IMG/VR virus record: IMGVR_UViG_3300013233_000109
Span: 8,895 to 72,894 of that record
Length of the DNA stretch: 64,000 nt
Strand: one strand, 5' to 3'
Origin: a virus
This document shows, one piece after another, positions 16,192-47,778 of the stretch. The first letter of the stretch is position 1. Every line of letters starts with the position of its first letter. Below the pieces are notes generated by a model. It had not been told where the DNA came from, did not search any database, and was given only the letters and a program-made list of their open reading frames with translations. A program made the translations under genes and the position numbers.

Positions 16192-19100
16192 TTAAATACC
16201 TTCATTTTTAATGAATAATGCTTGCTCCGAGAACTGATCTTCTAGTCTCGGTATTTTAACATTAAAGTCGTACGGTTCAGCTCCGAACCCGACTTCCTCT
16301 GGTGGTGCTAAGTTAATAACAATATTATTAATTATAACAATATTATCATTAAATGGATCAAAACCTAAATTATTAATTTCATACCAGCTATTTGCATAAC
16401 TTATAATATCTATGTACATAATGTCGGTTGGTGTAAACACACCTGGGTCACCAATAAATGATAACTCTATATCCGGTAATAAATTAGCTCTATTAAACCC
16501 ACTAGCTGCTGGATCTTTGACATCCAATGGCTTAGTGCCTACTGCTTTAGTTTGAAATCTATTAAATTTTGCATCATTTAACTTAATTGATAATTTGCCT
16601 GTTCTACCATTAAATCCAGGTAGTACTAAGCTGTATCGTACTTTACCACGCGGAGCTGGCTCTTGTATGAAATCATTTACTGTAAATTCTAGTGCTGTTA
16701 ATACTGTAGTTTTTACTGGCACTTGTGTTTCTCTATTAGCATTATAAATTAGACTACCTGCTAAATGGCCGGTGTCGCTTGCTCCGGGTACCGCCTCGGC
16801 ATCTGCCGTTAGCAATACGTTATCGGCTGTAATACTAGTGTCATTTACTGTAAATTGTTCTGGCGTTGTGATCATTGTTCCGGTGCCGGCTGTTCCTCTG
16901 CGTAAACCATATAATGTAGTAGGCGTTTTATTTAAATATGTAATACGTTCGCCGTTTATTGTTATTATTCCGAATAATCCTTGAGATGGTACTGGCGTAA
17001 ATAAATTACTAGTGTCATCTACGTGTATCACCTCATCGCTAGCATACAACGGTGATGATAGTGTTGCTTCTACTGTTGGATGTAGCGTGTAATGCGCATA
17101 ATTGCCTCGCATATCTTGGAAATATCTAAAATCTACGGTCCTGGCATCTGGCGCTTCTATGAAATTACCTTGGTCGATTGTCCCGAATCGTGTACGCACT
17201 GTTAATAATAATGTGTCAAACATTTGCCCGGGCACTAATTCTTCCGGAGCGTGTGAACTGTACGTGTCTACAAATCCGCCACCTACGACGTCAACGTCCG
17301 ATGGGCGAGTGCCGTTATATTCATCTAGCGAGTCTGAATATCCAACTATTGAATACTCATTATTTGTATACACTGTGTTATCTAATATATTTTGCCCGGG
17401 GAATTTACTAGCATATTCGGCATCTAATATATTCTCGTTAAATGTTGGGAATCCAAGATTATCTAATGTTACGTTATCGTACTTACCGAAATCATACGGT
17501 GTTAAATCGTAGCCATCTATTGTATTAAAATCTACACCGTTTATTTGAACTCCTGGGTATTCTAGTCCATTTATTAGCATCGGTATGTTCAAACCTTTAT
17601 CGTTAGCTCCTGGCTCGTAAAATCCCTGTGTTCTGTCCATTCCGCTTAACTCTTCTATATCAACTAACGTATGTTGCGATGGTATAAATTTTTCATCATT
17701 TATATTTAATAAGCCCGAGTTTACTGTGTATACACTACTGTTATATTTTACTAAAATTTCATCGGATATATTATCAAAGGCGATGGTATCAAACGGAGCC
17801 GTGTCGTATCCTGTTGATATTTGCGAACTACTATTAATTCTAGCTAATCTATCTGCACTGGCATTTTCTTCTATTTTTATATAATCAGCTTCGTTTAGTG
17901 GCCATGTATATACATTCGTATTGTATTCATACCTATCATACTTAATGGTTGTTGTAAATGATCTAACTAAATCATTTTTCGTTACTATTCTAGCTGTTGC
18001 GTCTAATCCATTACCTCCCTCGATTAAAACAGTTGGTGTAGTTGTAAATCCGCTGCCCTGGGTTTCGATGTAAATACTTGTTACTAATCCATCGCTATCT
18101 ATTCTTGCTTTAGCAACAGGCAGAATGTTAGCGTCACCAGTGATGGTTATTGTGGGTATTTCTGTATAATTAATGCCAGGGTTAATTAGTTCTATACTAT
18201 CTATAATAATCTGCCTGTTATTAAACCATTGATTATGCGGGTATGCTGACCATATGCTATCGCTTGCTAGTGTATTGCTATCTTCTGTTAATAATAATGC
18301 TCCGTCGTCTAATACTGGACTAATAAATTTGCTGTATGGAGCACTGTATATTGACGGACAATCGAAATCTGTAATTACATTGTCATTTAAATCTGTTGCT
18401 GTGTACGATAATTTAAAGTCTTTGATTTTTGTATGATACGGTTTTACTTCGTTTATATAATCTATTACATAATCTTGGTTGTCTTTGTTAAACACAGCAT
18501 ACGGCAATAATTCGCGTACTTTGTGATTAACATCTATTAGACTAGTTTTATTTAACCAGTGCACATTTTCTTGCTCTGACAGGATATAATTGAATACTGA
18601 TATTAACAATATATTACGCTCAATTTTTAAATCATTAGTTAGTATTTCTTCGTTAATTGATTTTAATATATTACGCAATTCGCTAAGAGGTTCTTCGTCG
18701 AACTTCTGTACTTCGTATACTTCAAAATCGTACCCATAACGTAATAGGCTGTAATCGTACAAGGCCGCACTAAATTCTAGTGTGCCATCTTGGACTGCTA
18801 CTCTGGTCCAGCTATTGTTGCTATATTGATATAATTCCCATTTACTGGCACTGTTGTCTAATACTTTAACAAATGTTACTACATTAAAATCAACCGAGTC
18901 TAGCTCATTGATTGTTTGTACAGTTAATTGTATTTTCTCAGATTTGGAGCTGGCTGTTTTATACCAATCTACTGTTTTCCAGAATCGCGTAGTATCAAAA
19001 CTCTGCACTCTTGTTAACTTTAATATTTTTGCGGGGGTTACCTCGTGTATTGTCCAGAATCCGCCCACTGATTCATTTGATACTACTAAGTATTTGAACC

Positions 19101-22100
19101 CTGCTGGTACTAACGCTAAATTCTGAAATTCGAGTTCTGTGAGATCTTGAACTTTTATGTCATATGTAGTAGGTGATGGCAATGGCTCCTCGGTCTTTAA
19201 AAGAGGGTACACTTTGTTTTCAGCTGCTGGCGTTGTTATTAGTATCGCATTCACTTTTAAGATGTAATTTTTTAACGCTGCTAGTCTGTCTTTAAACATT
19301 GTCTGGCGTGGGCGGAAATTGACACCGTAACGCTCGCTAGCATTTAATTTAATATCCGGCACTTTGTTACCTTGCGTGTCGGCACCTACAAAACTATCTA
19401 ATAGCTTTTTGTATAATCCTGCTGGTAAGAAATCTGTCTTGTGATTTTCTCTAATTAATTCGTATTCTTGGAAAATATTTGCGTCATTTTTAACATTGTC
19501 GAATTCTACGTGAAGCACTGTCTCATTATCTATGTACTTTGATTTTGTATTATATAATCCTACTGTGTTTTTATTAATTATTGCTGCATACGCGATGCCA
19601 GACGATGATGGGCTCTTAATATACGATGCTATTGCTGATGGGCTTAACGTTTTTTCGCTATTAGTTAGAATCGTGTTGCCGTTTTTTACCCAATAATAAT
19701 ACGTTGTCTCTATTACAGTATCTTTAATTTCACTAAGTGATACAAAATTTGTAGTATCTAACACATCTCCGGCAAATAGGGTAGGTGGCACTTTACTCTC
19801 AGTCCATTGATATACATCTACTGAGCTTCCTTTAAACACTGATCCCCATAGATTTGCTGCTACATTAACATCCTTTTGGAAGTAATCTACAAATCTAACA
19901 GTACTGACATCCCACCAGATTTGACCTACATTCGCTTTGCTCCACAATATGCCCGAGGTTGCTGATCCGTATACTGCTGGATCAGTTGGCGTAATATAAT
20001 CTAAGTTTTGTTGGGCAGCTCCTAATATCTTGCCGTTCAATGGGTCAATATAATCTAATCTGCTTAGTATGTCTTCTGACGAGTTGCTGTAGAGATACAT
20101 AGCATTAATCATATTAATATCAGTTTGCGGTTGTTGTGATCTAATTGATTCCCAGTTACGTGCTTGGCTGCTAGCACTATATAATGTAATATGGCTGCCC
20201 GGTGTACTTACTATGATGTCGCCGTCTACTAACGTAGCTTTATTACCGTACAGCGAATTTGACGTTACTGTTGTATTGTATACTTGTTGTCCAAATGCTA
20301 ACTTGCCAGCACTAAATTCAGTAACGTCTTGTAATATATCGTAGGTGTAAATTGCTCCGGATTTTTCAAAAGCATCGACTAATCTCATTGATTTACCGTC
20401 AAATGTAGTACTTCTATTATCAATTGGCGCCAGCTTCTGTGTAGTTCCTGCGCTGCTAACTAGTAAATGATTTTTATTAATATCAATTTCTACAATTTTG
20501 CCAAAATTAGCATTAATTTCGCTAATAGGCGGACGGATGATCTGTGCTGCGTCGTATACTGTAAAGTTCAAATCGCTAAATGCGAACCCAATACCTGGCA
20601 ACACATCTAGCTTACTAGCAAGCGATGTTAATAACTTATTCTTTAATTCGATCATTATCTGATTATTAAATAATCGAGATGTTACATTAGGTATGTTTTT
20701 AGCATTGATATTATCTACTAGATCACTTAATGTTGTTCCTACAAATACATCAATATTATTAATACGGATAGTATCTGTTGCTGTTAGTGATGTGGTAAAA
20801 TTTGATATTATATACCCGTTCATTCTAGCAGTGTTTATATAGCGTGTTACTGTACCTTCGTTTATGTTCTGTGTACTGTCTGTTGGTGAGCCGATATATA
20901 ACGAGCACTGTGAATTACATAAACTTACACTTTCACCAAATGATGAACCTGTTGTTCCTACGATTGTAGCAATTTCAACGTAATCATTAATGTCGACTTC
21001 TAAGAAATCGCCTACTACCGGATTAGCTAATGTTATTACATTTGCTGCTGCTATATAATCTTCTGTGACTATATTATTAATATGAATTGCTCCGTTGCTG
21101 TAATTTCGCAAGGTGGTGTACGATGGCATATTAGCTTCGACTACAAAACGTTCAACTACTCTACTATACACGCGGACGGTATCGGTGTTGTCACCTAATA
21201 CAATCTGACTAGCATTATCTGATACATCGATTGCTGTTACATTTGTTAACGGGATGGTGCCTTTATTTTCGTATTTCAGTATATTATTTAAATTGTATCC
21301 TGTTACTTCGATTCCGTTACTAACAAAGAACCACCTATTGTCTGCGCTAAGTGCTAGTATCTCACCATTAGCATAGGGGATAGTTTCTACCAATGAATAA
21401 TCAATAGCTTTTTCTGATTCTACGCGAGCTATTATTTGTATTTCTGTACTAGTTAATACAATCGCAGTAGTGTCGTTAAATTTAATATCGATTGCTGCTA
21501 TTGCAAATTGTTCCTTTAATACTAACCCTGTAGCTTTTTTAGTATAAGCATACACCGTGGTGTCATCGGCTACAAAGGCTCCGGTGGTGCCAGTACCTTG
21601 TGCTACTATTTTTCCGTAATTATTATTAATAACAGGGGGTTGTGTTGTTTTACTTTCTGCATATAAATCTTGCTTAGCATATACGTGTGATAAATTATCG
21701 TTAGTGTCTACCCATACTTTATCTGTAGAGAATAATTTGTTATCTAAATCTGAATTAGCAATATCGCTCGGAGTGCTTACTCTACTAGATGTTAATAGGA
21801 AAATATTACCAGTATTTTCTATTTCGATTTGCTCAGCATCTAATGAGCCGGCTATTACTATCTTATAATCACTTAATATAGATGTTATGTTGTGAGCTCC
21901 ATTTATTTGCGGGTCAACGTACTTAATTATTATTTTATCATCTGTTACTAAAGTGTGTGGCGAATTAACGTCTATTGTAATCGTTCCATCTAGATTATCA
22001 CTTACTCTGATTATTTCAGGGTTAATGTGTTTAGTGCGATAAACATTCCAGCTATAATCATTGTCTTTTGCTACCCATATAGTAGATCCGTCTACAATGT

Positions 22101-25100
22101 CATTAACTTGCGATGTTATCTCAGACAAATCATTTAAACTAAAGACTGAAAATGATACTTCGTTTTCTGTCACAAATCCGGCTGTTGGTAACTGGATGTC
22201 TTCGTTGTTGCCTTTGCGCATTGGATATATGTTGTTAGTGCTATGTTTAACACTTTGATTAAATATATCACCGACTAATATTTGCTGAGAAGCAGCACTA
22301 ATTCCATTGGTTATTTGCACTGTTGACGGATTGTCGTTTAACTGGGTTTCGTCTAGCTGTACCTCGACATAGCCCCTGCTATTTGTTGCTCCGTATTCGG
22401 CACGTTTAACTGCCCAGTTTTCAAATATTTCGTAATCTGTTACTGCGTTGTTTATTGTTGTATTGCGGAATAAATCTAAACTACTTGCGGTTCCTTTTGA
22501 TTTAACAATATCTTGATAAACATTAACTTGCGATATATCGCTTAAATCTAAGCTAGTTAGGTATTCACGTGGGCGGAATCCAATTAACCCTAGTGAGAAC
22601 AAATCGTTGTCTTTTTCTAAATTAGCTGTTTTGCTATTATAGAACTGCAGCATCTCATTAGACTTAGTTGCTAAATTTGGCAGGGCACCAGTGGCTACGT
22701 TAGTGTAATCTATTTTAGCCCAGCTGCTTAAATTAAATAATTCTGATGGTGATACTTTTTCTAAAGCAGCATATACACTGTTTTTATAGCGTATCATCTC
22801 ACCTTTGTTATAACTACTTGTAGATGCCCATTCTGCTACATTATCATCATTTAACAGAAATCCCTGGGCATCTACTTGGCCGTTCCAATCTGTACTAGTG
22901 AATCCTACTAATTTAACTCGTGTTTGTCTAACCCCGGTGACCGGATCGTATATCAGATCACTAAAGATACTAGTGTTATCGAGTACTAATATATGCTCAA
23001 AACTAGTTAAATTAAAGTTTAAATAACTAATGATTTTGTCATTAATAGTTGATATTTTAAAGTTATTTTCAATTCTATCAACTACATAATCGCTTGGTAA
23101 TAATAATTGTCTGTTTTGATCTTGTGGCTGCTCATTTACTGCCATATTTAATAAGCTATCTACTACAGTAAACTCGCGTTCAAATTCAAGTGCTTCGGCT
23201 GCTGGATTTAAATTAATTATAGCACTATCGCCCCATCCTTGGTCGCTCCAGTATGTGAACTCCGACGCCATTGATGTCCAATTTACTTCGACGTTATTCT
23301 CTGTATTCTCAAAACGTAGCCCGCGCTCACTTAGGTAAGCTCCATAACTTATTATGAAATCTACCACAGCATGTTTGTTTGTAAATACATAACCATACGG
23401 TATATACGCAATACGATTACTAAATGTTTGTGGTATACGGATAGTAGTAGCATCGCGTGACGTATTGCCTACTACTATCTTTTTAAACTTTCCACCGCTA
23501 AGTGACTGTCTAATTTTAAAGTATGGATCTGTGTTGCTGTTGCCGTATACCGCATATCCGTCTTGTACTTTTTGTACTGTTATAGCCGAATATACTACTT
23601 CGTCAAATGGCTGATTTTTATGTACTAATAAATTGTAACTCTCATCTGGCAGCAATAACGAATTATTTAAACTATCTGGGCTACTTCTGTCAGTGAATAC
23701 TTTTAAATTGTCTTTGTCTGTGAACGCTGCCATTCTGTAACATAAGCTAACATCTAAATTAGCTAAAACGTTAGATAGTTCGGCTGAGCTATTATAACCG
23801 TAGAATTTGTTATAATCGATAATCCAGTTTACATAACTATTTTTATTTGTGGTACTAGCAATCTCTAATTCTTTAACATTTAATCTGCTTCTGCCATCTA
23901 ATAGATACTGATTGTGCTCTTCACTGAATTTATATCGATCTCTATCTGCGTTTAAACTAAAATATTGTGCTGGTTTTGTTAGCGATAATAAACGTTGAAC
24001 CGCAAATGGCCACGCACTACTTTTTCTGAATGCACTTTCTGCAGGACTTTGATCACCTACTTTCCAAGATTGCTGAAAATCAAACGCACTATGTGCTGCT
24101 ACTACATTCTCTAGCGGGGATAATAATCTACCTTCGCTATCAACTGGTATGATTTCTAATAATTGCGGGCGGATGTATTTTTCGGCAATATACGGAGCTA
24201 CCGGATCTTTAATTAATCCTAGTGCTAAATCGTCCCATAGTACTAAGTTACCGCTTGTATACGGTGCAGGGCCATATTGCTGCTGCCACCATATCGGCTC
24301 TAGCGATAATCCTAGCATCTCCCACGGGCGTGTATGCGGGGAATCAGTGTCGTATAAATGATTGTAAATACCGCGCCAGTTTCCCTTTAATATGTTTCCG
24401 TCTAATTTGTTTACTGATTTGCTGTAATTTTTAGTTTTGTCGTTGGTACTATCAAATGCTTGCGTTACATAATCTATTTTATTCCAGCCTAACCAGGATA
24501 CTAGCGATGGCGTTAATATTTCTGTTATTTCCGAGTCTGTATAATCAGTGGTGCGGAATTGTCCTGGGTTTATATCGTTGAACGATAGTGGTGTATCGCT
24601 GTTAACTTTGATATTATTAAAAATACGTTTCTCAAATTCTAATAATACATCATCGCGTATGTCATCGAATGCCACTGTGATACTACCGTCGTGTCCTCTA
24701 ATGACATTAACTGGTGTTACATAAGTGTCATCTAGATATTTCACTGGTTTATATTTTTGGTACATTCCCATTTTAGTAGGCGTACTTGGAATGCCTGATG
24801 CTACAGTGCTATTATACTCCATGAATAATATAACGTCGTCAACTACTAAATCTACTAAAAATGTTACGTTGGGGCTGTCTGCACTTACTGTGTAGTCAAT
24901 ATCTTTGAGCAATATAGTGTCATTTAGATAAACTAATAATGCTTTATTATTTGCTTGTGTAAAATCAAATATATTTACTGTGTTGAATGTTTCCGAACTG
25001 ATTGCAGTCACTAAGTGCTGTGTGGCTTCAAAATCTGTGCCGCTTGGAATCATGTCGCTATTATAAAACGCGCTTGTTGTGCTTTTTCCTACGTTGATTT

Positions 25101-28100
25101 CAGTTAATGCTTGCTCTAGTATTTCTGCCGATGATAATTCAAAGACATCGTGCTTGGCTACCCAGTCCACTAATTGATTTTTAAACTTTTCATAGGCGCG
25201 TGAACTGAATTTTATAGAATCGTAAAAATTATATTCATTTTTGCGTATAAATGTTGATGCTAATGCTACTGGTGCCGATTGCTGAATTATATTTAATCCA
25301 TATGACGGAACTTGACCTAGGTCTCGCAAATTATTGGCACCGTTGATATTACCACTAAAATCTAATATGTTTTGTGCTAACGTAATATAGTGATTCCGTA
25401 TTGTTCCTAGTGTTAATTCACTTGTATTTCCGTTAAAAACGTTCTGCGACAGATTCTGCGGCACTTGGTAATAACCGTTGCTGCTAGCGGTGTTGCTTAT
25501 TATTAATACTTCGACAGGTGTGCCGATTGCAATATTATTGTTTAACGTTATTAATGTTGAATCTGTTATAGATAATGTGTAGTTATCTGTTGTAACAAAT
25601 TGATTATCGGCAATCACTTTAATTGCAGGGGTCTTTAAATCAATGGTCGGAGTAATGTCCACTACTAGTGGCTTTCCTTCGTAAATATAATTAAATATTT
25701 GCGGGATATGTGCTATTTCAGCACTTCTGACCCACCCGGTATGCGATGTGTAGTCAGTTATTGTTTGGTATGTTCTAGCAAAGTGCTTGCTTAAATTATC
25801 GCTAGTGCTTGCAGTAACACTAACATAATCAAAACTATCAGTATATAAATCATTTTTAAATGTGATATCGCCTAGGTTACCGATATTTAAATACTTTAGT
25901 GGAAACCCAAGTACTGTATCATTTTGGCCGGCACCTATAGCATAACTAAATAATTTTGTGCCGATAAATGTCGATGCTGTGTACCGATCTCTATTAGCTA
26001 AGCTAATACCGTCAGTGTCGAATAAATCGAATAATGGTGGCTGATTTACTTTCGTTTTTTCCTGTGATGGTAACCACGTGCTGTTAGCAAATACATATGA
26101 TTTGCCTATTAACGTAGTACCGGAGGTTGTTAATATGTTATGTCCTTCGCTAGTGGCGCTGTCATCTGCTAGCGTTAATACTATTGTTTCATTTCCGTCA
26201 GCATTTAAATCCTCATATGACACTACGAATATTTTGTCTCGGACTGTGGAATCTGTGTCTGCTGCAAAAATAATGCGTGTATTATTTGCTAATTTATAGC
26301 CATCTACAAAATACCCGGGATTTGTTGCTAATCCATTTATATTGCTTAGCGCATCTGTTTCTGTAAAATCTATTACGTCGACTGGTGTTTTGCCTTGTGT
26401 GCCGTGATTAAATAGTTTTAAGTTGGCTTCAAATTCTAAGATAGGACGGTTGGCTCTAAAATTATTGTCTGTTACTACTACAGTATTATTATATTCTGCT
26501 GTTTTTGTTATAACATCAATGTGCGTCCAACGATTAGAACGTGACCACGCATTTCTGTCATTGCTAGCTTTGTTTATTGTTATATAATCAGATGTTAATG
26601 GCGCATCTAAACTGCCGTTATATCCTATTGTATCAAACGGTGATGCTTCGTAAGTATCTAGTATACTATCCGTAAATGGTTCTGGTGTGATGAATTCCGA
26701 CACTGGTAATAATTTTATTGCGGTTCCTACACCTTCGATGTAATATTCTACGTCTTGATATTCTTGTGGACTGGTTTGTCCTCTGAATTGTACTTTTAAT
26801 CCGTTAGTAAATACAACGCCGTTTGCTGATGTGTATACTTTTTTACCTAGTATCTCGTCAATGAATAATACTGCAGACTCATCTTGATCTACTATATTAA
26901 TCTTTCCAAACATTCCTGGATTTGATGAATCTTGATAATATAATGTATCTAGTGTTGCTGTTAATACAGGCACACGTTCGAAGAAGCCTTGGCTGTTTTT
27001 AAAGAAATCAACATTGCTGTATGTGTCGCCGTGTGTTATTGTTACTTTTTCTAATGTGTTAACTGTTTTAAACGGTAGTAAATCTACGTATGGATTTTCG
27101 CCGTTGATATCGTATACTAAATTAATCTTAAATATTTGATATCTATCATTCAGATTGTTTATTTCGCTAAATGTTTCAAATGTATTTGAATCGTAACTAT
27201 CATTATTAAAGCGTGTTTGATTTACCCAGCCGGTGTTTGTTCCTAATCCGGTGGTATTATCTAAAAATATTATTGTTTTTCCTTGTAAATCACCTATGTT
27301 ATTGATACCGTTAGTCAATGATGATACTAAAACATTATTAATGTCGTTATATTTTAAATCTGATGCTAGATCAACTGTTCCTATGTATGTTAATGTTCTG
27401 TAAAATTCTTGCGAGGTAACGTCTGGTACGTGAAATTCTAATATGCCAGCTGGTGTTCCGTTATTAATAACACCGTCTATGTCACGTGACGTGATGTTAC
27501 TAGCGTATGATGTGCTGCCAGATGTGCCTGGCTCGGTTTGAATATATAGATTTCCCGTTGATGTAAATGTATAATTTCCACTGCGAACTAATGTTATTGT
27601 TGGGTTTTCGCCTGCTATGTCTGCAATGTTATACGTGTTTGATAATGTGTTTTGATTAAAATTAAATTCATCACTTAAAAATATGTCTGTGGCTCCGACA
27701 TCAACACTATCCGGTCCTTGCGGCAGCCAGTAATACTGTGAGTAATTTACAAACTTGTCAAAATCAACAAATGGTGACCAACTGTATGTTTCGCTGCTAA
27801 ATAGTCTGTCGTGATTTTGTACATCGGCACCTTTTGTTTCTAATCCGTCAATTAACCCTGGGTATGTTAATACATCCTGTGTGTTATTGTTGCTGTCGTT
27901 AAATATAATTCCAGGTTCAAGTTGATAATTGGCTCTTGTAACGTCATTTTCTACTATATAAGTATCGGTGCTTGATACACTAGGTCCTGTGCGCTTACCT
28001 ACAAATCCTTGTGTGCGTTTAATCTTTGGTTCTTGTATTAATTGATCGAACGTTGATCCGAGAAACTTTTTATTAGTACTAGTTTGAAAGATCTCTGGAA

Positions 28101-28131
28101 GAAAATCTACACTGCGTATTCTATCAGCCAT
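16192..28131 (-). CDS. Giant (3979 aa) baseplate wedge/virion structural protein
   Basis: Single 11.9 kb ORF immediately after the gp6-like gene; FLPEIFQT start, SKGT motif, VKPYHT motif, and PG..YTEIPTITITG / GSGFTTTPTV repeats typical of T4-like wedge proteins. Confidence 0.8.
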   Translation of the reverse strand: MADRIRSVDFLPEIFQTSTNKKFLGSTFDQLIQEPKIKRTQGFVGKRTGPSVSSTDTYIVENDVTRANYQLEPGIIFNDSNNNTQDVLTYPGLIDGLETKGADVQNHDRLFSSETYSWSPFVDFDKFVNYSQYYWLPQGPDSVDVGATDIFLSDEFNFNQNTLSNTYNIADIAGENPTITLVRSGNYTFTSTGNLYIQTEPGTSGSTSYASNITSRDIDGVINNGTPAGILEFHVPDVTSQEFYRTLTYIGTVDLASDLKYNDINNVLVSSLTNGINNIGDLQGKTIIFLDNTTGLGTNTGWVNQTRFNNDSYDSNTFETFSEINNLNDRYQIFKINLVYDINGENPYVDLLPFKTVNTLEKVTITHGDTYSNVDFFKNSQGFFERVPVLTATLDTLYYQDSSNPGMFGKINIVDQDESAVLFIDEILGKKVYTSANGVVFTNGLKVQFRGQTSPQEYQDVEYYIEGVGTAIKLLPVSEFITPEPFTDSILDTYEASPFDTIGYNGSLDAPLTSDYITINKASNDRNAWSRSNRWTHIDVITKTAEYNNTVVVTDNNFRANRPILEFEANLKLFNHGTQGKTPVDVIDFTETDALSNINGLATNPGYFVDGYKLANNTRIIFAADTDSTVRDKIFVVSYEDLNADGNETIVLTLADDSATSEGHNILTTSGTTLIGKSYVFANSTWLPSQEKTKVNQPPLFDLFDTDGISLANRDRYTASTFIGTKLFSYAIGAGQNDTVLGFPLKYLNIGNLGDITFKNDLYTDSFDYVSVTASTSDNLSKHFARTYQTITDYTSHTGWVRSAEIAHIPQIFNYIYEGKPLVVDITPTIDLKTPAIKVIADNQFVTTDNYTLSITDSTLITLNNNIAIGTPVEVLIISNTASSNGYYQVPQNLSQNVFNGNTSELTLGTIRNHYITLAQNILDFSGNINGANNLRDLGQVPSYGLNIIQQSAPVALASTFIRKNEYNFYDSIKFSSRAYEKFKNQLVDWVAKHDVFELSSAEILEQALTEINVGKSTTSAFYNSDMIPSGTDFEATQHLVTAISSETFNTVNIFDFTQANNKALLVYLNDTILLKDIDYTVSADSPNVTFLVDLVVDDVILFMEYNSTVASGIPSTPTKMGMYQKYKPVKYLDDTYVTPVNVIRGHDGSITVAFDDIRDDVLLEFEKRIFNNIKVNSDTPLSFNDINPGQFRTTDYTDSEITEILTPSLVSWLGWNKIDYVTQAFDSTNDKTKNYSKSVNKLDGNILKGNWRGIYNHLYDTDSPHTRPWEMLGLSLEPIWWQQQYGPAPYTSGNLVLWDDLALGLIKDPVAPYIAEKYIRPQLLEIIPVDSEGRLLSPLENVVAAHSAFDFQQSWKVGDQSPAESAFRKSSAWPFAVQRLLSLTKPAQYFSLNADRDRYKFSEEHNQYLLDGRSRLNVKELEIASTTNKNSYVNWIIDYNKFYGYNSSAELSNVLANLDVSLCYRMAAFTDKDNLKVFTDRSSPDSLNNSLLLPDESYNLLVHKNQPFDEVVYSAITVQKVQDGYAVYGNSNTDPYFKIRQSLSGGKFKKIVVGNTSRDATTIRIPQTFSNRIAYIPYGYVFTNKHAVVDFIISYGAYLSERGLRFENTENNVEVNWTSMASEFTYWSDQGWGDSAIINLNPAAEALEFEREFTVVDSLLNMAVNEQPQDQNRQLLLPSDYVVDRIENNFKISTINDKIISYLNFNLTSFEHILVLDNTSIFSDLIYDPVTGVRQTRVKLVGFTSTDWNGQVDAQGFLLNDDNVAEWASTSSYNKGEMIRYKNSVYAALEKVSPSELFNLSSWAKIDYTNVATGALPNLATKSNEMLQFYNSKTANLEKDNDLFSLGLIGFRPREYLTSLDLSDISQVNVYQDIVKSKGTASSLDLFRNTTINNAVTDYEIFENWAVKRAEYGATNSRGYVEVQLDETQLNDNPSTVQITNGISAASQQILVGDIFNQSVKHSTNNIYPMRKGNNEDIQLPTAGFVTENEVSFSVFSLNDLSEITSQVNDIVDGSTIWVAKDNDYSWNVYRTKHINPEIIRVSDNLDGTITIDVNSPHTLVTDDKIIIKYVDPQINGAHNITSILSDYKIVIAGSLDAEQIEIENTGNIFLLTSSRVSTPSDIANSDLDNKLFSTDKVWVDTNDNLSHVYAKQDLYAESKTTQPPVINNNYGKIVAQGTGTTGAFVADDTTVYAYTKKATGLVLKEQFAIAAIDIKFNDTTAIVLTSTEIQIIARVESEKAIDYSLVETIPYANGEILALSADNRWFFVSNGIEVTGYNLNNILKYENKGTIPLTNVTAIDVSDNASQIVLGDNTDTVRVYSRVVERFVVEANMPSYTTLRNYSNGAIHINNIVTEDYIAAANVITLANPVVGDFLEVDINDYVEIATIVGTTGSSFGESVSLCNSQCSLYIGSPTDSTQNINEGTVTRYINTARMNGYIISNFTTSLTATDTIRINNIDVFVGTTLSDLVDNINAKNIPNVTSRLFNNQIMIELKNKLLTSLASKLDVLPGIGFAFSDLNFTVYDAAQIIRPPISEINANFGKIVEIDINKNHLLVSSAGTTQKLAPIDNRSTTFDGKSMRLVDAFEKSGAIYTYDILQDVTEFSAGKLAFGQQVYNTTVTSNSLYGNKATLVDGDIIVSTPGSHITLYSASSQARNWESIRSQQPQTDINMINAMYLYSNSSEDILSRLDYIDPLNGKILGAAQQNLDYITPTDPAVYGSATSGILWSKANVGQIWWDVSTVRFVDYFQKDVNVAANLWGSVFKGSSVDVYQWTESKVPPTLFAGDVLDTTNFVSLSEIKDTVIETTYYYWVKNGNTILTNSEKTLSPSAIASYIKSPSSSGIAYAAIINKNTVGLYNTKSKYIDNETVLHVEFDNVKNDANIFQEYELIRENHKTDFLPAGLYKKLLDSFVGADTQGNKVPDIKLNASERYGVNFRPRQTMFKDRLAALKNYILKVNAILITTPAAENKVYPLLKTEEPLPSPTTYDIKVQDLTELEFQNLALVPAGFKYLVVSNESVGGFWTIHEVTPAKILKLTRVQSFDTTRFWKTVDWYKTASSKSEKIQLTVQTINELDSVDFNVVTFVKVLDNSASKWELYQYSNNSWTRVAVQDGTLEFSAALYDYSLLRYGYDFEVYEVQKFDEEPLSELRNILKSINEEILTNDLKIERNILLISVFNYILSEQENVHWLNKTSLIDVNHKVRELLPYAVFNKDNQDYVIDYINEVKPYHTKIKDFKLSYTATDLNDNVITDFDCPSIYSAPYSKFISPVLDDGALLLTEDSNTLASDSIWSAYPHNQWFNNRQIIIDSIELINPGINYTEIPTITITGDANILPVAKARIDSDGLVTSIYIETQGSGFTTTPTVLIEGGNGLDATARIVTKNDLVRSFTTTIKYDRYEYNTNVYTWPLNEADYIKIEENASADRLARINSSSQISTGYDTAPFDTIAFDNISDEILVKYNSSVYTVNSGLLNINDEKFIPSQHTLVDIEELSGMDRTQGFYEPGANDKGLNIPMLINGLEYPGVQINGVDFNTIDGYDLTPYDFGKYDNVTLDNLGFPTFNENILDAEYASKFPGQNILDNTVYTNNEYSIVGYSDSLDEYNGTRPSDVDVVGGGFVDTYSSHAPEELVPGQMFDTLLLTVRTRFGTIDQGNFIEAPDARTVDFRYFQDMRGNYAHYTLHPTVEATLSSPLYASDEVIHVDDTSNLFTPVPSQGLFGIITINGERITYLNKTPTTLYGLRRGTAGTGTMITTPEQFTVNDTSITADNVLLTADAEAVPGASDTGHLAGSLIYNANRETQVPVKTTVLTALEFTVNDFIQEPAPRGKVRYSLVLPGFNGRTGKLSIKLNDAKFNRFQTKAVGTKPLDVKDPAASGFNRANLLPDIELSFIGDPGVFTPTDIMYIDIISYANSWYEINNLGFDPFNDNIVIINNIVINLAPPEEVGFGAEPYDFNVKIPRLEDQFSEQALFIKNEGI

Positions 28132-44858: not shown

Positions 44859-45389
44859 TTACTTATAGTAGATATCTATAACATTAAACTCAGTGTATAG
44901 CTTATCTAATAATTTTGTTAATTTTTGAGATTTTGGATACACTGGTACTTTCTTCTTGGGATACTTTACTTTAAATAATTTAATCATTTTATTAAACGTT
45001 GATTTTTTTATTTTTGGCTTCTTTGGAACTTCGCTCGGGTGAATAAAATAATCACCGTCCTCTGTATACGCACCGGCTTCTAGGTAATCTGCTAAATTAC
45101 GCAAATAGGTTGGCAAATCTGTTGGGTGTTTTGAAGTATCGGCACTATAATAACGTTTCCAATTGTTAGTGATCTTCCCTTCCATTGCATTTGCCCTGAA
45201 TTCAATGGCGTTGCGTATAGTTCCTTTATCAGTGGCATACGGTTCCGATTTTAGTTTATGTATATGATCTAGTGCCATTTTTTCTACCGGGACAGGAATT
45301 CCAAGCAAGGGGCAGATGCCGTTATTTTCCTTGTGAAGTTTTTCTTTAAGAATTTTAATATCCTTTTGTTTAAGCTCTTTAAATGCCAT
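44859..45389 (-). CDS. gp49: Endonuclease VII-like Holliday junction resolvase
   Basis: NGICP...LDHIH...GTIR...NAMEG...YLRNLADYLE...IHP aligns by eye with T4 gp49. Confidence 0.78.
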   Translation of the reverse strand: MAFKELKQKDIKILKEKLHKENNGICPLLGIPVPVEKMALDHIHKLKSEPYATDKGTIRNAIEFRANAMEGKITNNWKRYYSADTSKHPTDLPTYLRNLADYLEAGAYTEDGDYFIHPSEVPKKPKIKKSTFNKMIKLFKVKYPKKKVPVYPKSQKLTKLLDKLYTEFNVIDIYYK

Positions 45390-45428
45390 AGTAGTATTTA
45401 TATGGTGTTAAATAAGTAGCAATAATAC

Positions 45429-45457
45429 TTGACAGATGAGTTATTATCTACTATAAT
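45429..45457 (+). promoter_or_regulatory. Perfect consensus sigma70 promoter facing an ORF-free region
   Basis: TTGACA (45429-34), N17, TATAAT (45452-57). Confidence 0.85.
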
Positions 45458-45463
45458 ATATGT

Positions 45464-46095
45464 ATATTAAGAAAAAATAGTTATCGAGATTTACGTGATA
45501 ACTACTATTACAAAACAAACATAAGCATGGCAGTACGCGGTTGATTTCTGCCAATCAAGACACTCACTGTAACACGGGGTTTCCGCTGATTAATCGAGTT
45601 TTTGTTGCTCGCTTTAACACACTACCCGAAAGGGCGCCATTAAAATTAAGACCTGAATGTGCATTGTAGCAGTCAGACAATCTTTGCTTTGTGTTATCGG
45701 AATGGTTATTTCTTAGAAATAAGAAGTATTTTAGTGAGTGGGACGTCAAGACGCCATCTAATTTATTAGATACAGTTACCCCACAATGCATTATCATTAG
45801 CTTGGGTATATAAGCTGATAATGTATACGTTGTAGATTAAATTCTAGATTCACATGTAATGGAGAGAACGTTAACCTGCTCCCCTCTAGCGATAGAGTTA
45901 TGCTATATACCCTGTGGCTAAATCTTTAAAGAACTTTTCTTTTGATTTCGTATCATTTAGTAGTTTGATTCTGTGGCTTTAAAATCTTTTAAAATTGCTT
46001 TAAAAAATGAAGTTCTCATTTAACTCTCAGTTCAGGTCTGCCTACTATTCACTACGTTCATAGCAGTCATTGATTCATCTCATCTGAGCTGAGAA
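45464..46095 (+). ncRNA. Candidate large structured non-coding RNA (boundaries approximate)
   Basis: No plausible plus-strand ORF; GNRA-capped hairpins and several perfect 8-9 bp long-range complementarities downstream of a perfect promoter. Confidence 0.55.
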
Positions 46096-46370
46096 TCATC
46101 GATTTACTTCTTTATTTCTTTTAGCTGATATATAAGCAAAAACATATACATCTCTCATATAACAGTCAAAATATATTACAATATCTAAATTAATTAATTC
46201 TGAAAGAATGCTGTACGAGTTAATGAAATTAACGATGTATTCATTCTATACGAGCACAGCGAAGTATAGACATGAAAGAGAATTGCTGCCACAGTATATC
46301 ATTAAACTCTAGTAATGACTAAAGCATCAAGAATATTATTAACCTGTGTTTAAACACCATAAATACAAGT

Positions 46371-46667
46371 ATGAATATAAATGACTTAAAAGGCTCGAGC
46401 GATATCTATTATTTAGGTAGGGCAATGTGGAAAAAACAAGAAAGTGCTACATGGCAAAAGAAAGTTAAAAAATTAGCTAAGACTACTAAAACTCACTGGT
46501 CTGGAAACGCAAGCAATGCCGATGCGTTCAGTGTTTCAAAATCATATAAATTATTCAATGAAAGCACTAACAAAGTAGTAGCAACCATAACAGAATCTGA
46601 ATTAAAAATGCTAAAACACGCTAGTGTAAAAATACGCTCGGAACGTGACGGGATCTTAGACTGGTAG
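46371..46667 (+). CDS. Hypothetical late protein
   Basis: CATAAATA 5 nt before the ATG. Confidence 0.7.
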   Translation: MNINDLKGSSDIYYLGRAMWKKQESATWQKKVKKLAKTTKTHWSGNASNADAFSVSKSYKLFNESTNKVVATITESELKMLKHASVKIRSERDGILDW

Positions 46668-46720
46668 CTAAATACCGACCTACCACAAAATACATCATTT
46701 TTGTAAGGTAGTGATATTTC

Positions 46721-46939
46721 TCAAAAGTACGGAAGCCCACTCTTTTCTGTCGTTTTCATATTCTCTTTAGATAGTTTAGCGATCATATCGCGTTCTGCTG
46801 CAGATAAATTCAAACAATCGTTGTATTGAATACCACCACGCATAGCCCAGGTTAGGCTCATAGCGTTCTCTTTAATGATATTACATTCCTTTTCTAAGTC
46901 ATCAACATAAGCGGAAATAGCCTCGGCATCGAGGGCCAA
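46721..46939 (-). CDS. gp51-like/tail assembly chaperone C-terminal part, probably made by -1 frameshift from the upstream gene
   Basis: W.MRGG..Y.D.LNLS..ER motif; no ATG or RBS at the 5' end; lies in the -1 frame of 46945..47778. Confidence 0.7.
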   Translation of the reverse strand: MALDAEAISAYVDDLEKECNIIKENAMSLTWAMRGGIQYNDCLNLSAAERDMIAKLSKENMKTTEKSGLPYF

Positions 46940-46944
46940 TAACT

Positions 46945-47778
46945 TTACTCGAAAAAAGACGTCATATCCAGTGTAAACGGCTGTTCGTACTTATGTCCGC
47001 AATCATCACACGTAATAGATAATGGTTTAAGATCAGTTTTAGCACGCTCGCTAACAATATGAGATTTGATACCGTTGTAAATAGCTCTCTCACAATTCTG
47101 TAGATACGCTAAAATATGTTCTGGATCATCCACTACGGCACCCGGTACAGCTATATTACTAATATTTTTCACAAGCGTATCTAGTGTGTATTTAGAGACT
47201 TTTTTAAATGCGTCCGATAACAGTTTAATACGCTCCTTCTCAGGAAGTGTATCATCTTGCTTAACAATCATTTGCTGTAATTGCTGTTCTTCAAATTGAA
47301 TCTGATTATTCTCATTCATCTCGAAATAAGTTAACGGTTTAAAAGTAACAGAAATATCACCAGCATCAAACGTATTATGATAATCTGGCGAATGTAAATT
47401 ATCTAGCACATCGTGTAAATTTAGTTCATAATCGGACATTTCGTTGCATTCGGGGCAAGTAGTGCTAATCTCCATATTATGTGAGAAGCTAGCTATACGT
47501 ATCGCAGCTAATATAGCAGTAATATCAATGCTCGGCATTTGCCACGGATCAATTATACTAGGAATACAGCTTTTAATAACATCAACTAGTGCTGAACCAT
47601 TGAATAGTGCATCTGGGGTTCGATAAGTAATTTCGTCCAATGATGTCATAGGATAAACAGGCAGTTCTTTCGTCTCGGGCATATCTAACGTACCCTCGGG
47701 ATAAAAGCTACCTTTGCTCGGTAGTGCTAGGTGTATTGCTGGTTTGCGGAAGTAGCCCGCTAGTGGATTTTCATTCAT
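46945..47778 (-). CDS. gp26: Baseplate hub assembly/tail chaperone (gp26-like)
   Basis: LPSKG.FY, PMT..DE, IR.AS, CPEC and CDDC zinc motifs, ending TSFFE. Confidence 0.8.
   Translation of the reverse strand: MNENPLAGYFRKPAIHLALPSKGSFYPEGTLDMPETKELPVYPMTSLDEITYRTPDALFNGSALVDVIKSCIPSIIDPWQMPSIDITAILAAIRIASFSHNMEISTTCPECNEMSDYELNLHDVLDNLHSPDYHNTFDAGDISVTFKPLTYFEMNENNQIQFEEQQLQQMIVKQDDTLPEKERIKLLSDAFKKVSKYTLDTLVKNISNIAVPGAVVDDPEHILAYLQNCERAIYNGIKSHIVSERAKTDLKPLSITCDDCGHKYEQPFTLDMTSFFE

What the first reader, a model, noticed from the sequence alone, without database searches (positions are those of the whole stretch)
45429..46095. Candidate large, pseudoknotted non-coding RNA driven by a perfect sigma70 promoter
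Seen in sequence: the only ~1 kb gene-free gap in an otherwise gene-dense window begins with TTGACA-N17-TATAAT. It contains GNRA-capped hairpins (CCC-GAAA-GGG 45625-34; CTCTA-GCGA-TAGAG 45884-97) and other local stems. It also has perfect long-range complements: CACTCACT 45561-68 with AGTGAGTG 45733-40; TGCATTGT 45660-67 with ACAATGCA 45783-90; the hairpin loop GGGTATATA 45804-12 with TATATACCC 45904-12 (pseudoknot-type); AGACCTGAA 45649-57 with TTCAGGTCT 46031-39; and a shorter ATGGC 45527-31 with GCCAT 45636-40. I could not recognise tRNA, tmRNA, RNase P or intron signatures. Inference: a 450-630 nt highly structured phage RNA, either a new large ncRNA class or a structured replication-primer RNA.
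Basis: partly seen in the sequence, partly recalled or inferred. Interest (0 to 1): 0.88.

Follow-up and report, generated by a model that had tools for sequence, protein, structure and literature searches.

The report
Divergent Polynucleobacter-1-type phage RNA gene
The gene-free kilobase of this uncultured T4-like phage very probably encodes a large, knotted non-coding RNA. It looks like a strongly diverged relative of an orphan RNA motif catalogued in 2010, whose job is still unknown.

Summary
TTGACA-N17-TATAAT at 45429-45457 is the only perfect sigma70 site in the 64 kb. The window alone gives little support. The number of 8/9-mer complements is at chance, folding z-scores run from -0.0 to -2.6, and Rfam finds nothing.

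Comparison with sister phages changes the picture. Five of them carry the Rfam motif Polynucleobacter-1 (RF01718: 80.1 and 39.8 bits, three below threshold). In four it sits at the same site and on the same strand, upstream of endonuclease VII; the fifth (L005) has it downstream of an RNase H gene. In all five it is embedded in a longer conserved RNA.

Two other sister phages (L024, L079) share a collinear but strongly diverged version with the window. The closing helix, the CCC-GAAA-GGG and CTCTA-GCGA-TAGAG hairpins, a long hairpin and the GGGTATATA/TATATACCC pseudoknot recur at matching positions with different letters.

My reading: a real structured RNA of at least 350 nt (45561-45912, + strand), a new variant of a known orphan family rather than a new class. 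Covariance models do not place it in RF01718. Function is unknown and expression is unproven. Earlier reports of this scan describe the canonical long form in many other T4-like phages.

The parts
45429..45457 (+). Perfect sigma70-type promoter TTGACA-N17-TATAAT. The inferred start of the RNA is near 45464.
   Evidence: This is a consensus match only; no transcript start was seen.
45464..45560 (+). Leader with two hairpins: arms around 45479-45485/45497-45503, and TGGCAG 45528-45533 with CTGCCA 45548-45553.
   Evidence: MFE z is -2.36. No sequence likeness to the leaders of relatives.
45561..45740 (+). 5' domain closed by helix P0 (CACTCACT 45561-68 with AGTGAGTG 45733-40).
   Evidence: Closing helices also occur in L024 (7 bp), L079 (6 bp, register shifted) and the canonical relatives (14 bp). 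The domain lies 172-351 nt upstream of the endoVII start, against 183-360 nt in L021.
45581..45611 (+). Conserved block TTCCGCTGATTAA, followed by hairpin P3 (CGAG 45595-98 with CTCG 45608-11).
   Evidence: The block is shared with L024 in 15 of 17 letters at the same offset; CCGCTG is also in L079.
45615..45696 (+). P4 core: TAACAC 45615-20 with GTGTTA 45691-96. It encloses ACTA, the CCC-GAAA-GGG hairpin (45625-34) and a long insert that ends in TTT.
   Evidence: This is the only descriptor match in the window on either strand. The descriptor otherwise hit only the syntenic elements of relatives, in 585,401 nt of 73 records. Random sequence gives 2-4 matches per 20 Mb.
45660..45790 (+). Possible pseudoknot PK1: TGCATTGT 45660-67 with ACAATGCA 45783-90.
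   Evidence: Duplex -12.1 kcal/mol. L079 has 9 bp with one bulge at the matching place. The L024 counterpart (7 bp plus a bulge) was read by eye. PK1 overlaps the T3 arm.
45789..45823 (+). Long hairpin T3: CATTATCA/TGATAATG plus AGCTT/AAGCT, with loop GGGTATAT.
   Evidence: L024 has 10+4 bp and L079 has 8+3 bp at matching positions with different letters.
45804..45912 (+). Pseudoknot PK2: T3 loop GGGTATATA 45804-12 with TATATACCC 45904-12.
   Evidence: L024 has TGTATAAG/TTTATACA and L079 has AGGTATAA/TTATACCT at matching positions, with flanking pairs changed on both sides.
45833..45897 (+). Hairpin T4 (TAGA/TCTA), conserved block CATGTAATGG (45853-62), helix T5 (GGAG 45861-64 with CTCC 45879-82), and hairpin T6 (CTCTA-GCGA-TAGAG 45884-97).
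   Evidence: The best local alignment of window and L024 lies here at equal offsets, 292 against 291. T5 and T6 pair in all three sequences with different letters.
45912..45978 (+). The word CTGTGGCT occurs twice (45912-19 and 45971-78) in the unconserved tail.
   Evidence: L024 has ACAGCG twice at matching places. L079 has no repeated word, read by eye. Meaning unknown.
45913..46370 (+). AT-rich remainder of the gap. The 3' end of the RNA is not defined.
   Evidence: No terminator-like site on the + strand. No likeness to any locus. MFE z is -0.33 to -1.26.
44859..45402 (-). Endonuclease VII (gp49-like) gene with TATAAATA (45395-45402) just upstream. This is the conserved neighbour, transcribed divergently.
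   Evidence: Pfam PF02945 at 23.0 bits against a cut-off of 23.6, E 7.6e-5. PHROG 423, E 7.5e-22. TATAAATA site.
46371..46667 (+). orf98, a small gene downstream on the same strand. It is absent from the sister loci that keep the RNA.
   Evidence: no Pfam family.

Best explanation
The gap holds a stand-alone gene for a large structured RNA on the + strand.

Inferred expression: host RNA polymerase starts at the perfect sigma70 promoter, near 45464.

Proposed fold:
- Two leader hairpins.
- A 5' domain closed by P0 (45561-45740), holding P3 and the P4 core (ACUA, then CCC-GAAA-GGG).
- A 3' domain (T3-T6, to about 45912).
- At least one pseudoknot ties the 3' domain together: the T3 loop pairs with the segment after T6. 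A second pseudoknot may tie it to the 5' domain.

It is a strongly diverged relative of the long phage RNA whose first part is catalogued as Rfam Polynucleobacter-1 (RF01718). Several sister phages carry that RNA at the same place and on the same strand next to endonuclease VII.

Most sister loci have no downstream gene on that strand. I therefore think it acts in trans as a folded RNA, a protein-binding or architectural RNA linked to the DNA-processing gene block, and not as an mRNA leader.

Shown: conserved structure and synteny. Inferred: transcription, RNA ends, the trans-acting role, and any link to DNA metabolism.
For: **1. Context.**
- The window is a T4-like phage fragment.
- The gap lies between endoVII (-) and orf98 (+).

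**2. Canonical RNA in sister loci.**
- The sister loci have endoVII 77-83% identical to the window's.
- Four of them keep an ORF-poor gap of about 800-950 nt upstream of endoVII.
- RF01718 hits on the strand opposite endoVII: L021 39.8 bits (gathering score 37), L015 22.3, L077 21.3, L014 17.3. In L005, a different context, it scores 80.1 bits.
- My model R1, built from L014 and L015, joins them: L077 148, L021 105.7, L005 24.5 bits.
- On their alignment 97% of cells pair. 18 of 43 pairs change on both sides (0 of 500 shuffles reach this), and slid controls pair at 25-45%.
- Conserved islands and two further helices continue about 300 nt past the Rfam model.

**3. Link of the window to the canonical RNA.**
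- I wrote a descriptor of the P4 core: a 6-bp helix, then ACTA[AC]CC, a loop of 4-9, GG, and closure within 25-75 nt.
- It matched once in the window (45615-45696, +). Elsewhere it matched only the syntenic elements of relatives, in 73 records and 585,401 nt.
- Random sequence gives 2-4 matches per 20 Mb, about 1-2e-4 per gap and strand.
- Model R3 of that core found L079 at its syntenic site (12.2 bits, one of 2 hits with E up to 5 in 69,785 nt). It ranks the syntenic site first in L024 (8.0 bits).

**4. Window, L024 and L079 are collinear.**
- Shared 6-mers near the diagonal, window against L024: 22 against 3.78 +/- 2.55 (0 of 2000 shuffles).
- Window against L079: 27 against 11.14 +/- 4.43 (3 of 1000).
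- L024 against L079: 350 of 535 aligned letters identical.

**5. Shared helices with different letters.**
- P0, P4, T3, T5, T6 and PK2 pair at matching positions with different letters.
- 4 of 5 long L024 helices recur in the window within 14 nt. No shuffle of 1000 reached 4, and 11 reached 3.
- Six G-U pairs on this strand would be mismatches on the other.

**6. Independent occurrence.** One contig of a public run matches 45555-45794 without a difference. The run's kind is only guessed as DNA.
Against: - **No covariance model places the window's element in the family.** RF01718 gives no hit at E up to 10. R1 and R2 do not list it with filters off. R3 gives the site only 6.6 bits, E 7.4, sixth of 11 hits in that stretch.
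- **The descriptor was written after I had seen the window**, and its spacing range was widened to include it.
- **The variant group is small.** It has three sequences, and two of them are close to each other.
- **Some structure was picked by eye.** I chose the helices partly by eye on anchored alignments, and the P0 register differs in L079.
- **Stability is weak.** Single-sequence stability is barely above shuffles and no better on the + strand.
- **Long-range complements are at chance number**.
- **No transcript start, end or terminator was seen**.
- **Canonical hallmarks are missing.** The window lacks the P1 and P2 hairpins, the GCAGUAG-type P3 loop and the CCUAC loop of canonical members.
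- **Function is wholly inferred.**
Confidence: 0.68

Rival explanations
1. It is a real large structured RNA but unrelated to Polynucleobacter-1. It would be an independent RNA class that replaced the canonical RNA at the same site in this lineage (window, L024, L079).
For: Rfam and three purpose-built models fail on the window. There is no significant sequence likeness between the window and canonical members. P1, P2 and the conserved loops are absent. This intergenic site is variable: other relatives carry ORFs there.
Against: The site, strand and distance from endoVII are the same. The P4-core descriptor match has a chance rate near 1e-4. R3 hits L079 and L024 at the syntenic spot. The L024 leader is 77% identical to those of L014 and L015 over about 58 nt. 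The overall layout is the same: a closing helix, then a tail of about 170-220 nt with helices.
Confidence: 0.17
2. It is a DNA-level element, such as a replication origin or recombination site rich in inverted repeats, beside the junction-cutting and hairpin-cutting enzymes. It may involve an RNA primer made from the promoter.
For: The neighbours are endoVII and SbcCD-like genes. In L005 the canonical RNA lies next to an RNase H gene, and in phage Phosso an RNase HI gene flanks the equivalent gap. The fold is equally stable on both strands. The tail is AT-rich and carries a repeated word.
Against: G-U pairs and pseudoknots fit only one strand. Rfam and R1 hits in relatives are strand-specific: the other strand scores 14 bits against 259-263. 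No direct-repeat families occur in the gap. The cumulative GC-skew turn is near 38-39 kb, not here.
Confidence: 0.06
3. It is a long structured 5' leader that controls orf98 in cis (riboswitch-like or attenuator).
For: It is on the same strand as orf98, there is no terminator-like site between them, and a single promoter lies upstream. The 2010 paper's table marks the motif as probably cis-regulatory (table row seen).
Against: L014, L015, L021, L077 and L024 keep the RNA but have no orf98. The next gene on that side is convergent. About 460 unconserved nt separate the conserved part from orf98.
Confidence: 0.05
4. It is non-functional spacer or decayed gene remnants. On this view the promoter match and helices are chance.
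For: Complement counts and folding energies are near chance. A perfect promoter appears in 17 of 100 shuffles of the window.
Against: Collinear blocks and position-matched helices are shared with L024 and L079 far beyond shuffles. There is no protein-level likeness in any frame.
Confidence: 0.04

Closest known systems
Polynucleobacter-1 RNA motif (Rfam RF01718; Weinberg et al. 2010, PMC2864571; I saw only its table row)
   Same: - Same genomic site and strand as bona fide or near members in sister phages.
- A P4 helix followed directly by ACUACCC, a small capped hairpin closed by CC/GG, and UUU before the 3' strand.
- Enclosed by a long-range closing helix and followed by a structured tail.
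   Different: - No Rfam or custom model hit.
- P1 and P2 are missing: only about 26 nt lie between P0 and P3.
- The P3 loop and the P5 hairpin are unlike the consensus, and P5 is replaced by a 56-nt insert.
- An extra hairpin lies before the closing helix.
- It is driven by a sigma70-type promoter, whereas three relatives have TATAAATA on the RNA strand.
'Full-length / extended Polynucleobacter-1 twin-box phage RNA'
   Same: - An RNA of several hundred nt in uncultured T4-like phages, with pseudoknots.
- It sits beside a small DNA-cutting enzyme gene.
- The Rfam motif covers only the 5' part. I confirmed this for L014, L015, L021, L077 and L005.
   Different: - The reports describe it directly downstream of a GIY-YIG nuclease gene. 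Here it is divergent from endoVII.
- The twin-box feature is not reproduced across the variant group (window 8-mer twice, L024 6-mer twice, L079 none).
- The 5' third here is not recognisable by Rfam.
Large ornate RNAs often found in phages and prophages (ROOL, GOLLD; recalled, not from a call)
   Same: Several hundred nt long, many helices and pseudoknots, no known function at discovery, encoded in phage DNA as stand-alone genes.
   Different: No Rfam hit to either family. No shared motifs were seen. The size here is unproven beyond about 350-450 nt.

Membership tests
Rfam RF01718 Polynucleobacter-1 | Covariance-model score at or above the gathering score (37 bits) | tested here: not met
   The window has no hit at gathering threshold. 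There is none at E up to 10 on 45300-46450, and none in the whole 72.9-kb record. Relatives score: L005 80.1, L021 39.8, L015 22.3, L077 21.3, L014 17.3 bits.
Rfam RF01718 Polynucleobacter-1 | P1 and P2 hairpins 5' of P3 | tested here: not met
   Only about 26 nt (45569-45594) lie between P0 and P3. They hold the block TTCCGCTGATTAA and no two hairpins.
Rfam RF01718 Polynucleobacter-1 | P3 hairpin with conserved GCAGUAG-type loop | tested here: not met
   A hairpin is present at the matching place, but its loop is TTTTTGTTG.
Rfam RF01718 Polynucleobacter-1 | P4 helix enclosing ACUAYCC, a small hairpin closed by CC/GG, and UUU before the 3' strand | tested here: met
   TAACAC / ACTACCC-GAAA-GGG ... 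TTT / GTGTTA at 45615-45696. The descriptor is specific. However, the core model R3 gives only 6.6 bits.
Rfam RF01718 Polynucleobacter-1 | P5 hairpin with CCUAC loop inside P4 | tested here: not met
   It is replaced by a 56-nt insert without that loop.
   With filters off, the window's site is not listed at E up to 10 (R1) or E up to 1 (R2).
   L005 is an exception to the locus rule: its RNA lies downstream of an RNase H gene.
'Twin-box' long form (earlier scan reports) | One short word present twice in the tail, identical within a genome | tested here: inconclusive
   The window has CTGTGGCT twice and L024 has ACAGCG twice at matching places. L079 has no repeated word there, read by eye.
tRNA, tmRNA, RNase P, group I/II introns, ROOL, GOLLD and all other Rfam 15 families | Rfam or ARAGORN match | tested here: not met
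   0 matches at gathering score in 64 kb. Only 4 weak, unrelated matches at E 0.53-9.6. 0 tRNA or tmRNA genes.
Sigma70 promoter | Both hexamers at consensus with 17-nt spacing; actual transcription start | tested here: inconclusive
   The sequence criterion is met. Transcription is not testable here: no RNA holder was listed.

The most novel reading that the evidence does not exclude
The window, L024 and L079 carry a distinct, uncatalogued class of doubly pseudoknotted phage RNA of at least 450 nt. It would share only an ancestral P4 module with Polynucleobacter-1. It would work together with the neighbouring DNA-processing enzymes (endoVII, SbcCD, and RNase H in relatives). Two possible modes are a structured R-loop-forming primer RNA of a replication origin, or an RNA whose repeated single-stranded word pairs with phage messages that carry its complement.
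Probability: 0.1. Interest if true: 0.85.

Novelty: new variant of a known kind. Interest (0 to 1): 0.5.

Why it matters
Polynucleobacter-1 has been an orphan motif since 2010. This locus makes three points.

- **The RNA evolves fast.** In T4-like phages the RNA around the motif is much longer than the catalogued part. In one lineage it has changed so far that Rfam no longer sees it, so database scans undercount the family.
- **The variant narrows down the essential core.** The stripped-down form keeps P4 with ACUACCC and a capped hairpin, a closing helix and a knotted tail. It has lost P1 and P2.
- **It is easy to test at the bench.** A perfect sigma70 promoter should allow expression in E. 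coli for probing, structure work and partner pull-downs, without a cultured host for the phage.

Tried and rejected
**Searches and models that gave nothing**
- DNA search of the gap against 50,697 phage records found no match.
- blastn and tblastx of the gap against 35 fetched loci found nothing better than E 0.054 and 0.084.
- Models R1, R2 and R3 do not place the window.
- The gaps of phages 121Q and Phosso show no match to any model or Rfam family.

**Pattern scans for more members**
- GGCARTAGCGG..ACTAYCC in viral contigs gave 36 loci. Only L051, on the contig of L015, is real.
- TTCCGCTGAWTAA..ACTACCC in viral contigs gave 0. In genome contigs it gave 8 chance matches.
- ATGTAATGGRGAG..AACCTGC in viral contigs gave 1 match, inside a 270-aa ORF, so a chance match.

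**Ideas tested and dropped**
- Coding reading: the 77-aa ORF of the window and the 99-aa ORF of L024 match only themselves.
- A first, wrong inference of mine: that only about 200 nt are conserved in relatives and the tail is junk. It came from a BLAST cut-off and was overturned.
- RNAalifold on the anchored pair alignment gave a messy structure that I did not use.
- Twin-box idea: inconclusive (see the membership table).
- CTGTGGCT over-representation (6 against 1.31) and the antisense orientation of the outside copies: possibly composition skew, not pursued.

**Sequencing runs**
- No RNA holder was listed.
- The RNA run X2 and run X3 laid nothing.
- In X1, all of 44859-46945 outside 45555-45794 was without cover, apart from two 37-nt pieces with 6-7 differences.
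- These blanks say nothing about expression.

**Tools and papers not available or not used**
About 30 sister loci behind proteins P0002-P0036 could therefore not be fetched.
- Supplementary files of Weinberg et al. 2010, which describe the motif, are closed. I saw only the table row.
- Literature: 'Polynucleobacter-1' occurs in 1 paper and 'RF01718' in 3 papers of the held library (listings only for the other two papers). None describes the long form.
- Not used: structure prediction, complex prediction, atlas search.
Full report
**What is there**

The window is part of a 72.9-kb fragment of an uncultured virus. Its genes are T4-like:
- a gp55-like late sigma factor;
- SbcD- and SbcC-like gp47 and gp46;
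- endonuclease VII at 44859-45389 (-);
- a gp26-like baseplate hub at 46945-47778 (-);
- a gp20-like portal.

The nearest named phages are only 28-39% identical in these proteins. Between endoVII and a small + strand gene (orf98, 46371-46667) lie 981 nt without an ORF of 90 aa or more. TTGACA-N17-TATAAT at 45429-45457 is the only exact sigma70 consensus in the 64 kb. Shuffles give 0.17 on average, and 17 of 100 have at least one. A T4-late-type TATAAATA on the minus strand at 45395-45402 sits just upstream of endoVII.

**The window on its own is weak evidence**

- Rfam finds nothing at gathering score in the window, and only four unrelated weak matches in the gap.
- There are no tRNA or tmRNA genes.
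- The number of perfect 8-mer and 9-mer inverted complements equals that of dinucleotide shuffles: 10 against 6.07 +/- 3.11, and 2 against 1.46.
- Folding energies are at most 2.6 sd better than shuffles and no better on the + strand.
- No terminator-like site lies in the gap.
- No direct-repeat family was found.

**Sister phages: the canonical RNA**

I fetched loci around relatives of the hub and endoVII genes: 9, 8, 16 and 24 loci. Among loci with endoVII 77-83% identical to the window's, several keep an ORF-poor gap of about 800-950 nt upstream of endoVII. Others carry divergent ORFs there. No fetched locus resembles the window's gap by blastn or tblastx.

Rfam hits the motif Polynucleobacter-1 (RF01718) in these gaps, on the strand opposite endoVII, which is the window's + strand:

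| Locus | RF01718 bits (gathering 37) | R1 bits |
|---|---|---|
| L005 (different context, downstream of an RNase H gene) | 80.1 | 24.5 |
| L021 | 39.8 | 105.7 |
| L015 | 22.3 | 259 (used to build R1) |
| L077 | 21.3 | 148 |
| L014 | 17.3 | 263 (used to build R1) |

Sources. R1 was built from L014 and L015 with a 14-bp closing helix P0 around the motif.

- On the resulting alignment 97% of cells pair.
- 18 of 43 pairs change on both sides, and 0 of 500 shuffles reach this.
- Slid controls pair at 25-45%. The alignment was fitted to the model, which favours it.
- Conserved islands continue about 300 nt past the Rfam model.
- Two further helices pair at 90%, against 27-62% when slid.

In these phages the catalogued motif is therefore the 5' part of a longer RNA. 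Earlier reports of this scan say the same for many other T4-like phages. Those notes made me test the tail.

**The window's version**

Neither Rfam nor R1, R2 or R3 places the window's element. Three observations still tie it to the family.

1. **Position.** Its closing helix spans 172-351 nt upstream of the endoVII start, against 183-360 nt in L021, on the same strand.

2. **The P4 core.**
   - TAACAC / ACTACCC-GAAA-GGG ... TTT / GTGTTA (45615-45696) has the layout of the motif's P4.
   - A descriptor of that layout matched once in the window and otherwise only the syntenic elements of relatives, in 585,401 nt.
   - It matched 2-4 times per 20 Mb of random sequence.
   - I wrote the descriptor after seeing the window, so the true odds are weaker than that rate suggests.

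3. **Two bridging loci.**
   - L024 has endoVII 81% identical to the window's, and L079 77%.
   - R3 hits their syntenic sites: L079 at 12.2 bits, one of two hits at E up to 5 in 69,785 nt; L024 at 8.0 bits, its top hit.
   - The L024 leader is 77% identical to those of L014 and L015 over about 58 nt.
   - Both loci are collinear with the window. Shared 6-mers near the diagonal number 22 against 3.78 +/- 2.55 for L024 (0 of 2000 shuffles). For L079 they number 27 against 11.14 +/- 4.43 (3 of 1000).
   - L024 and L079 are 65% identical to each other.

**Conserved structure in the variant group**

These helices pair at matching offsets from the closing helix in window, L024 and L079:

| Helix | Window | L024 | L079 |
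|---|---|---|---|
| P0 | 8-9 bp | 7 bp | 6 bp, shifted about 4 nt |
| P4 | TAACAC/GTGTTA | CAATTG/CAATTG | AATTG/CAATT |
| Capped mini-hairpin | present | present | present |
| T3 | CATTATCA/TGATAATG | CATTAAACCA/TGGTTTGATG | CACATAAC/GTTATGTG |
| T5 | GGAG/CTCC | GGGG/CCCT | GAGG/CCTT |
| T6 | CTCTA/TAGAG | TTCGT/ACGAA | CTTAGT/ACTAAG |
| PK2 (T3 loop with segment after T6) | GGGTATATA/TATATACCC | TGTATAAG/TTTATACA | AGGTATAA/TTATACCT |

- Four of five long L024 helices recur in the window within 14 nt. Of 1000 shuffles none reached four and 11 reached three.
- Six G-U pairs fit only this strand.
By eye it also has one in L024.
- AGACCTGAA/TTCAGGTCT has no counterpart.
- I chose these helices partly by eye, and there are only three sequences, so the fold needs a larger set.

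**Extent and expression**

- Conservation with L024 and L079 runs from about 45581 to 45912.
- The leader from the inferred start (near 45464) and the AT-rich 45913-46370 are unconserved.
- One contig of a public run, whose kind is only guessed as DNA, equals 45555-45794 without a difference. It shows that this piece exists elsewhere, not that it is RNA.
- Three canonical relatives have TATAAATA on the RNA strand 125-205 nt upstream of P0 (sequences printed), whereas the window has a sigma70 site. The timing of expression may therefore differ.

**What it does**

The function of the family is unknown. The only paper in the held library that treats the motif lists it as a probable RNA, probably cis-regulatory, from Burkholderiales and fresh water or estuary (table row; supplements closed). 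In L014, L015, L021, L077 and L024 the next gene on the RNA's side is convergent. A leader role therefore does not fit those phages.

I commit to a stand-alone, trans-acting folded RNA, possibly linked to the DNA-processing block beside it (endoVII, SbcCD-like; RNase H in L005 and next to the equivalent gap of phage Phosso). That link is inference only. The rivals are an unrelated RNA class at the same site, a DNA-level origin or primer element, an orf98 leader, and chance. They are weighed in their own section.

**Verdict**

This scan has met the canonical long form many times before.
- Interest is moderate.

Noticed in passing
L002 4546-5383 (Escherichia phage 121Q) and L003 6232-7247 (Sinorhizobium phage Phosso): Both distant jumbo phages also have unannotated gaps of 840-1000 nt directly upstream of their endoVII / Holliday-junction resolvase genes. 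In Phosso the other flank is an RNase HI gene. No Rfam family and none of my three models match there.
   Followed up: partly
window 8071, 13794, 27687 (+), 61916 (-), 45912, 45971 (+): The 8-mer CTGTGGCT occurs 6 times against 1.31 expected (0 of 100 shuffles). Two copies lie in the RNA tail. At the other four the local message would carry the complement. Composition skew of the coding strands may explain the orientation.
   Followed up: partly
   Followed up: partly
L014, L015, L021, L077: 50-100 nt upstream of P0 on the RNA strand: A further conserved hairpin (CACCCAG ... stem ... UGGGA, with stem letters differing between loci) precedes the closing helix. L014, L015 and L024 also share a CUCC-GCGA-GGAG-type hairpin further upstream. 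The canonical RNA may therefore start well before the Rfam model. Read by eye.
   Followed up: no
window 16192-28131 (-): A single 3979-aa ORF. I first took it for an N4-type virion RNA polymerase, but the neighbouring genes are T4-like. It was not analysed.
   Followed up: no
window 45555-45794: A coded public run from a microbial-mat sample holds one 251-nt contig identical to this piece, followed by adapter letters. The run's kind is only guessed as DNA.
   Followed up: partly
L016 2173-4000, L017 2633-3839, L018 and L019 upstream of endoVII: In these relatives the same intergenic site holds divergent ORFs (87-473 aa) instead of the RNA, so the site is a variable insertion spot.
   Followed up: partly
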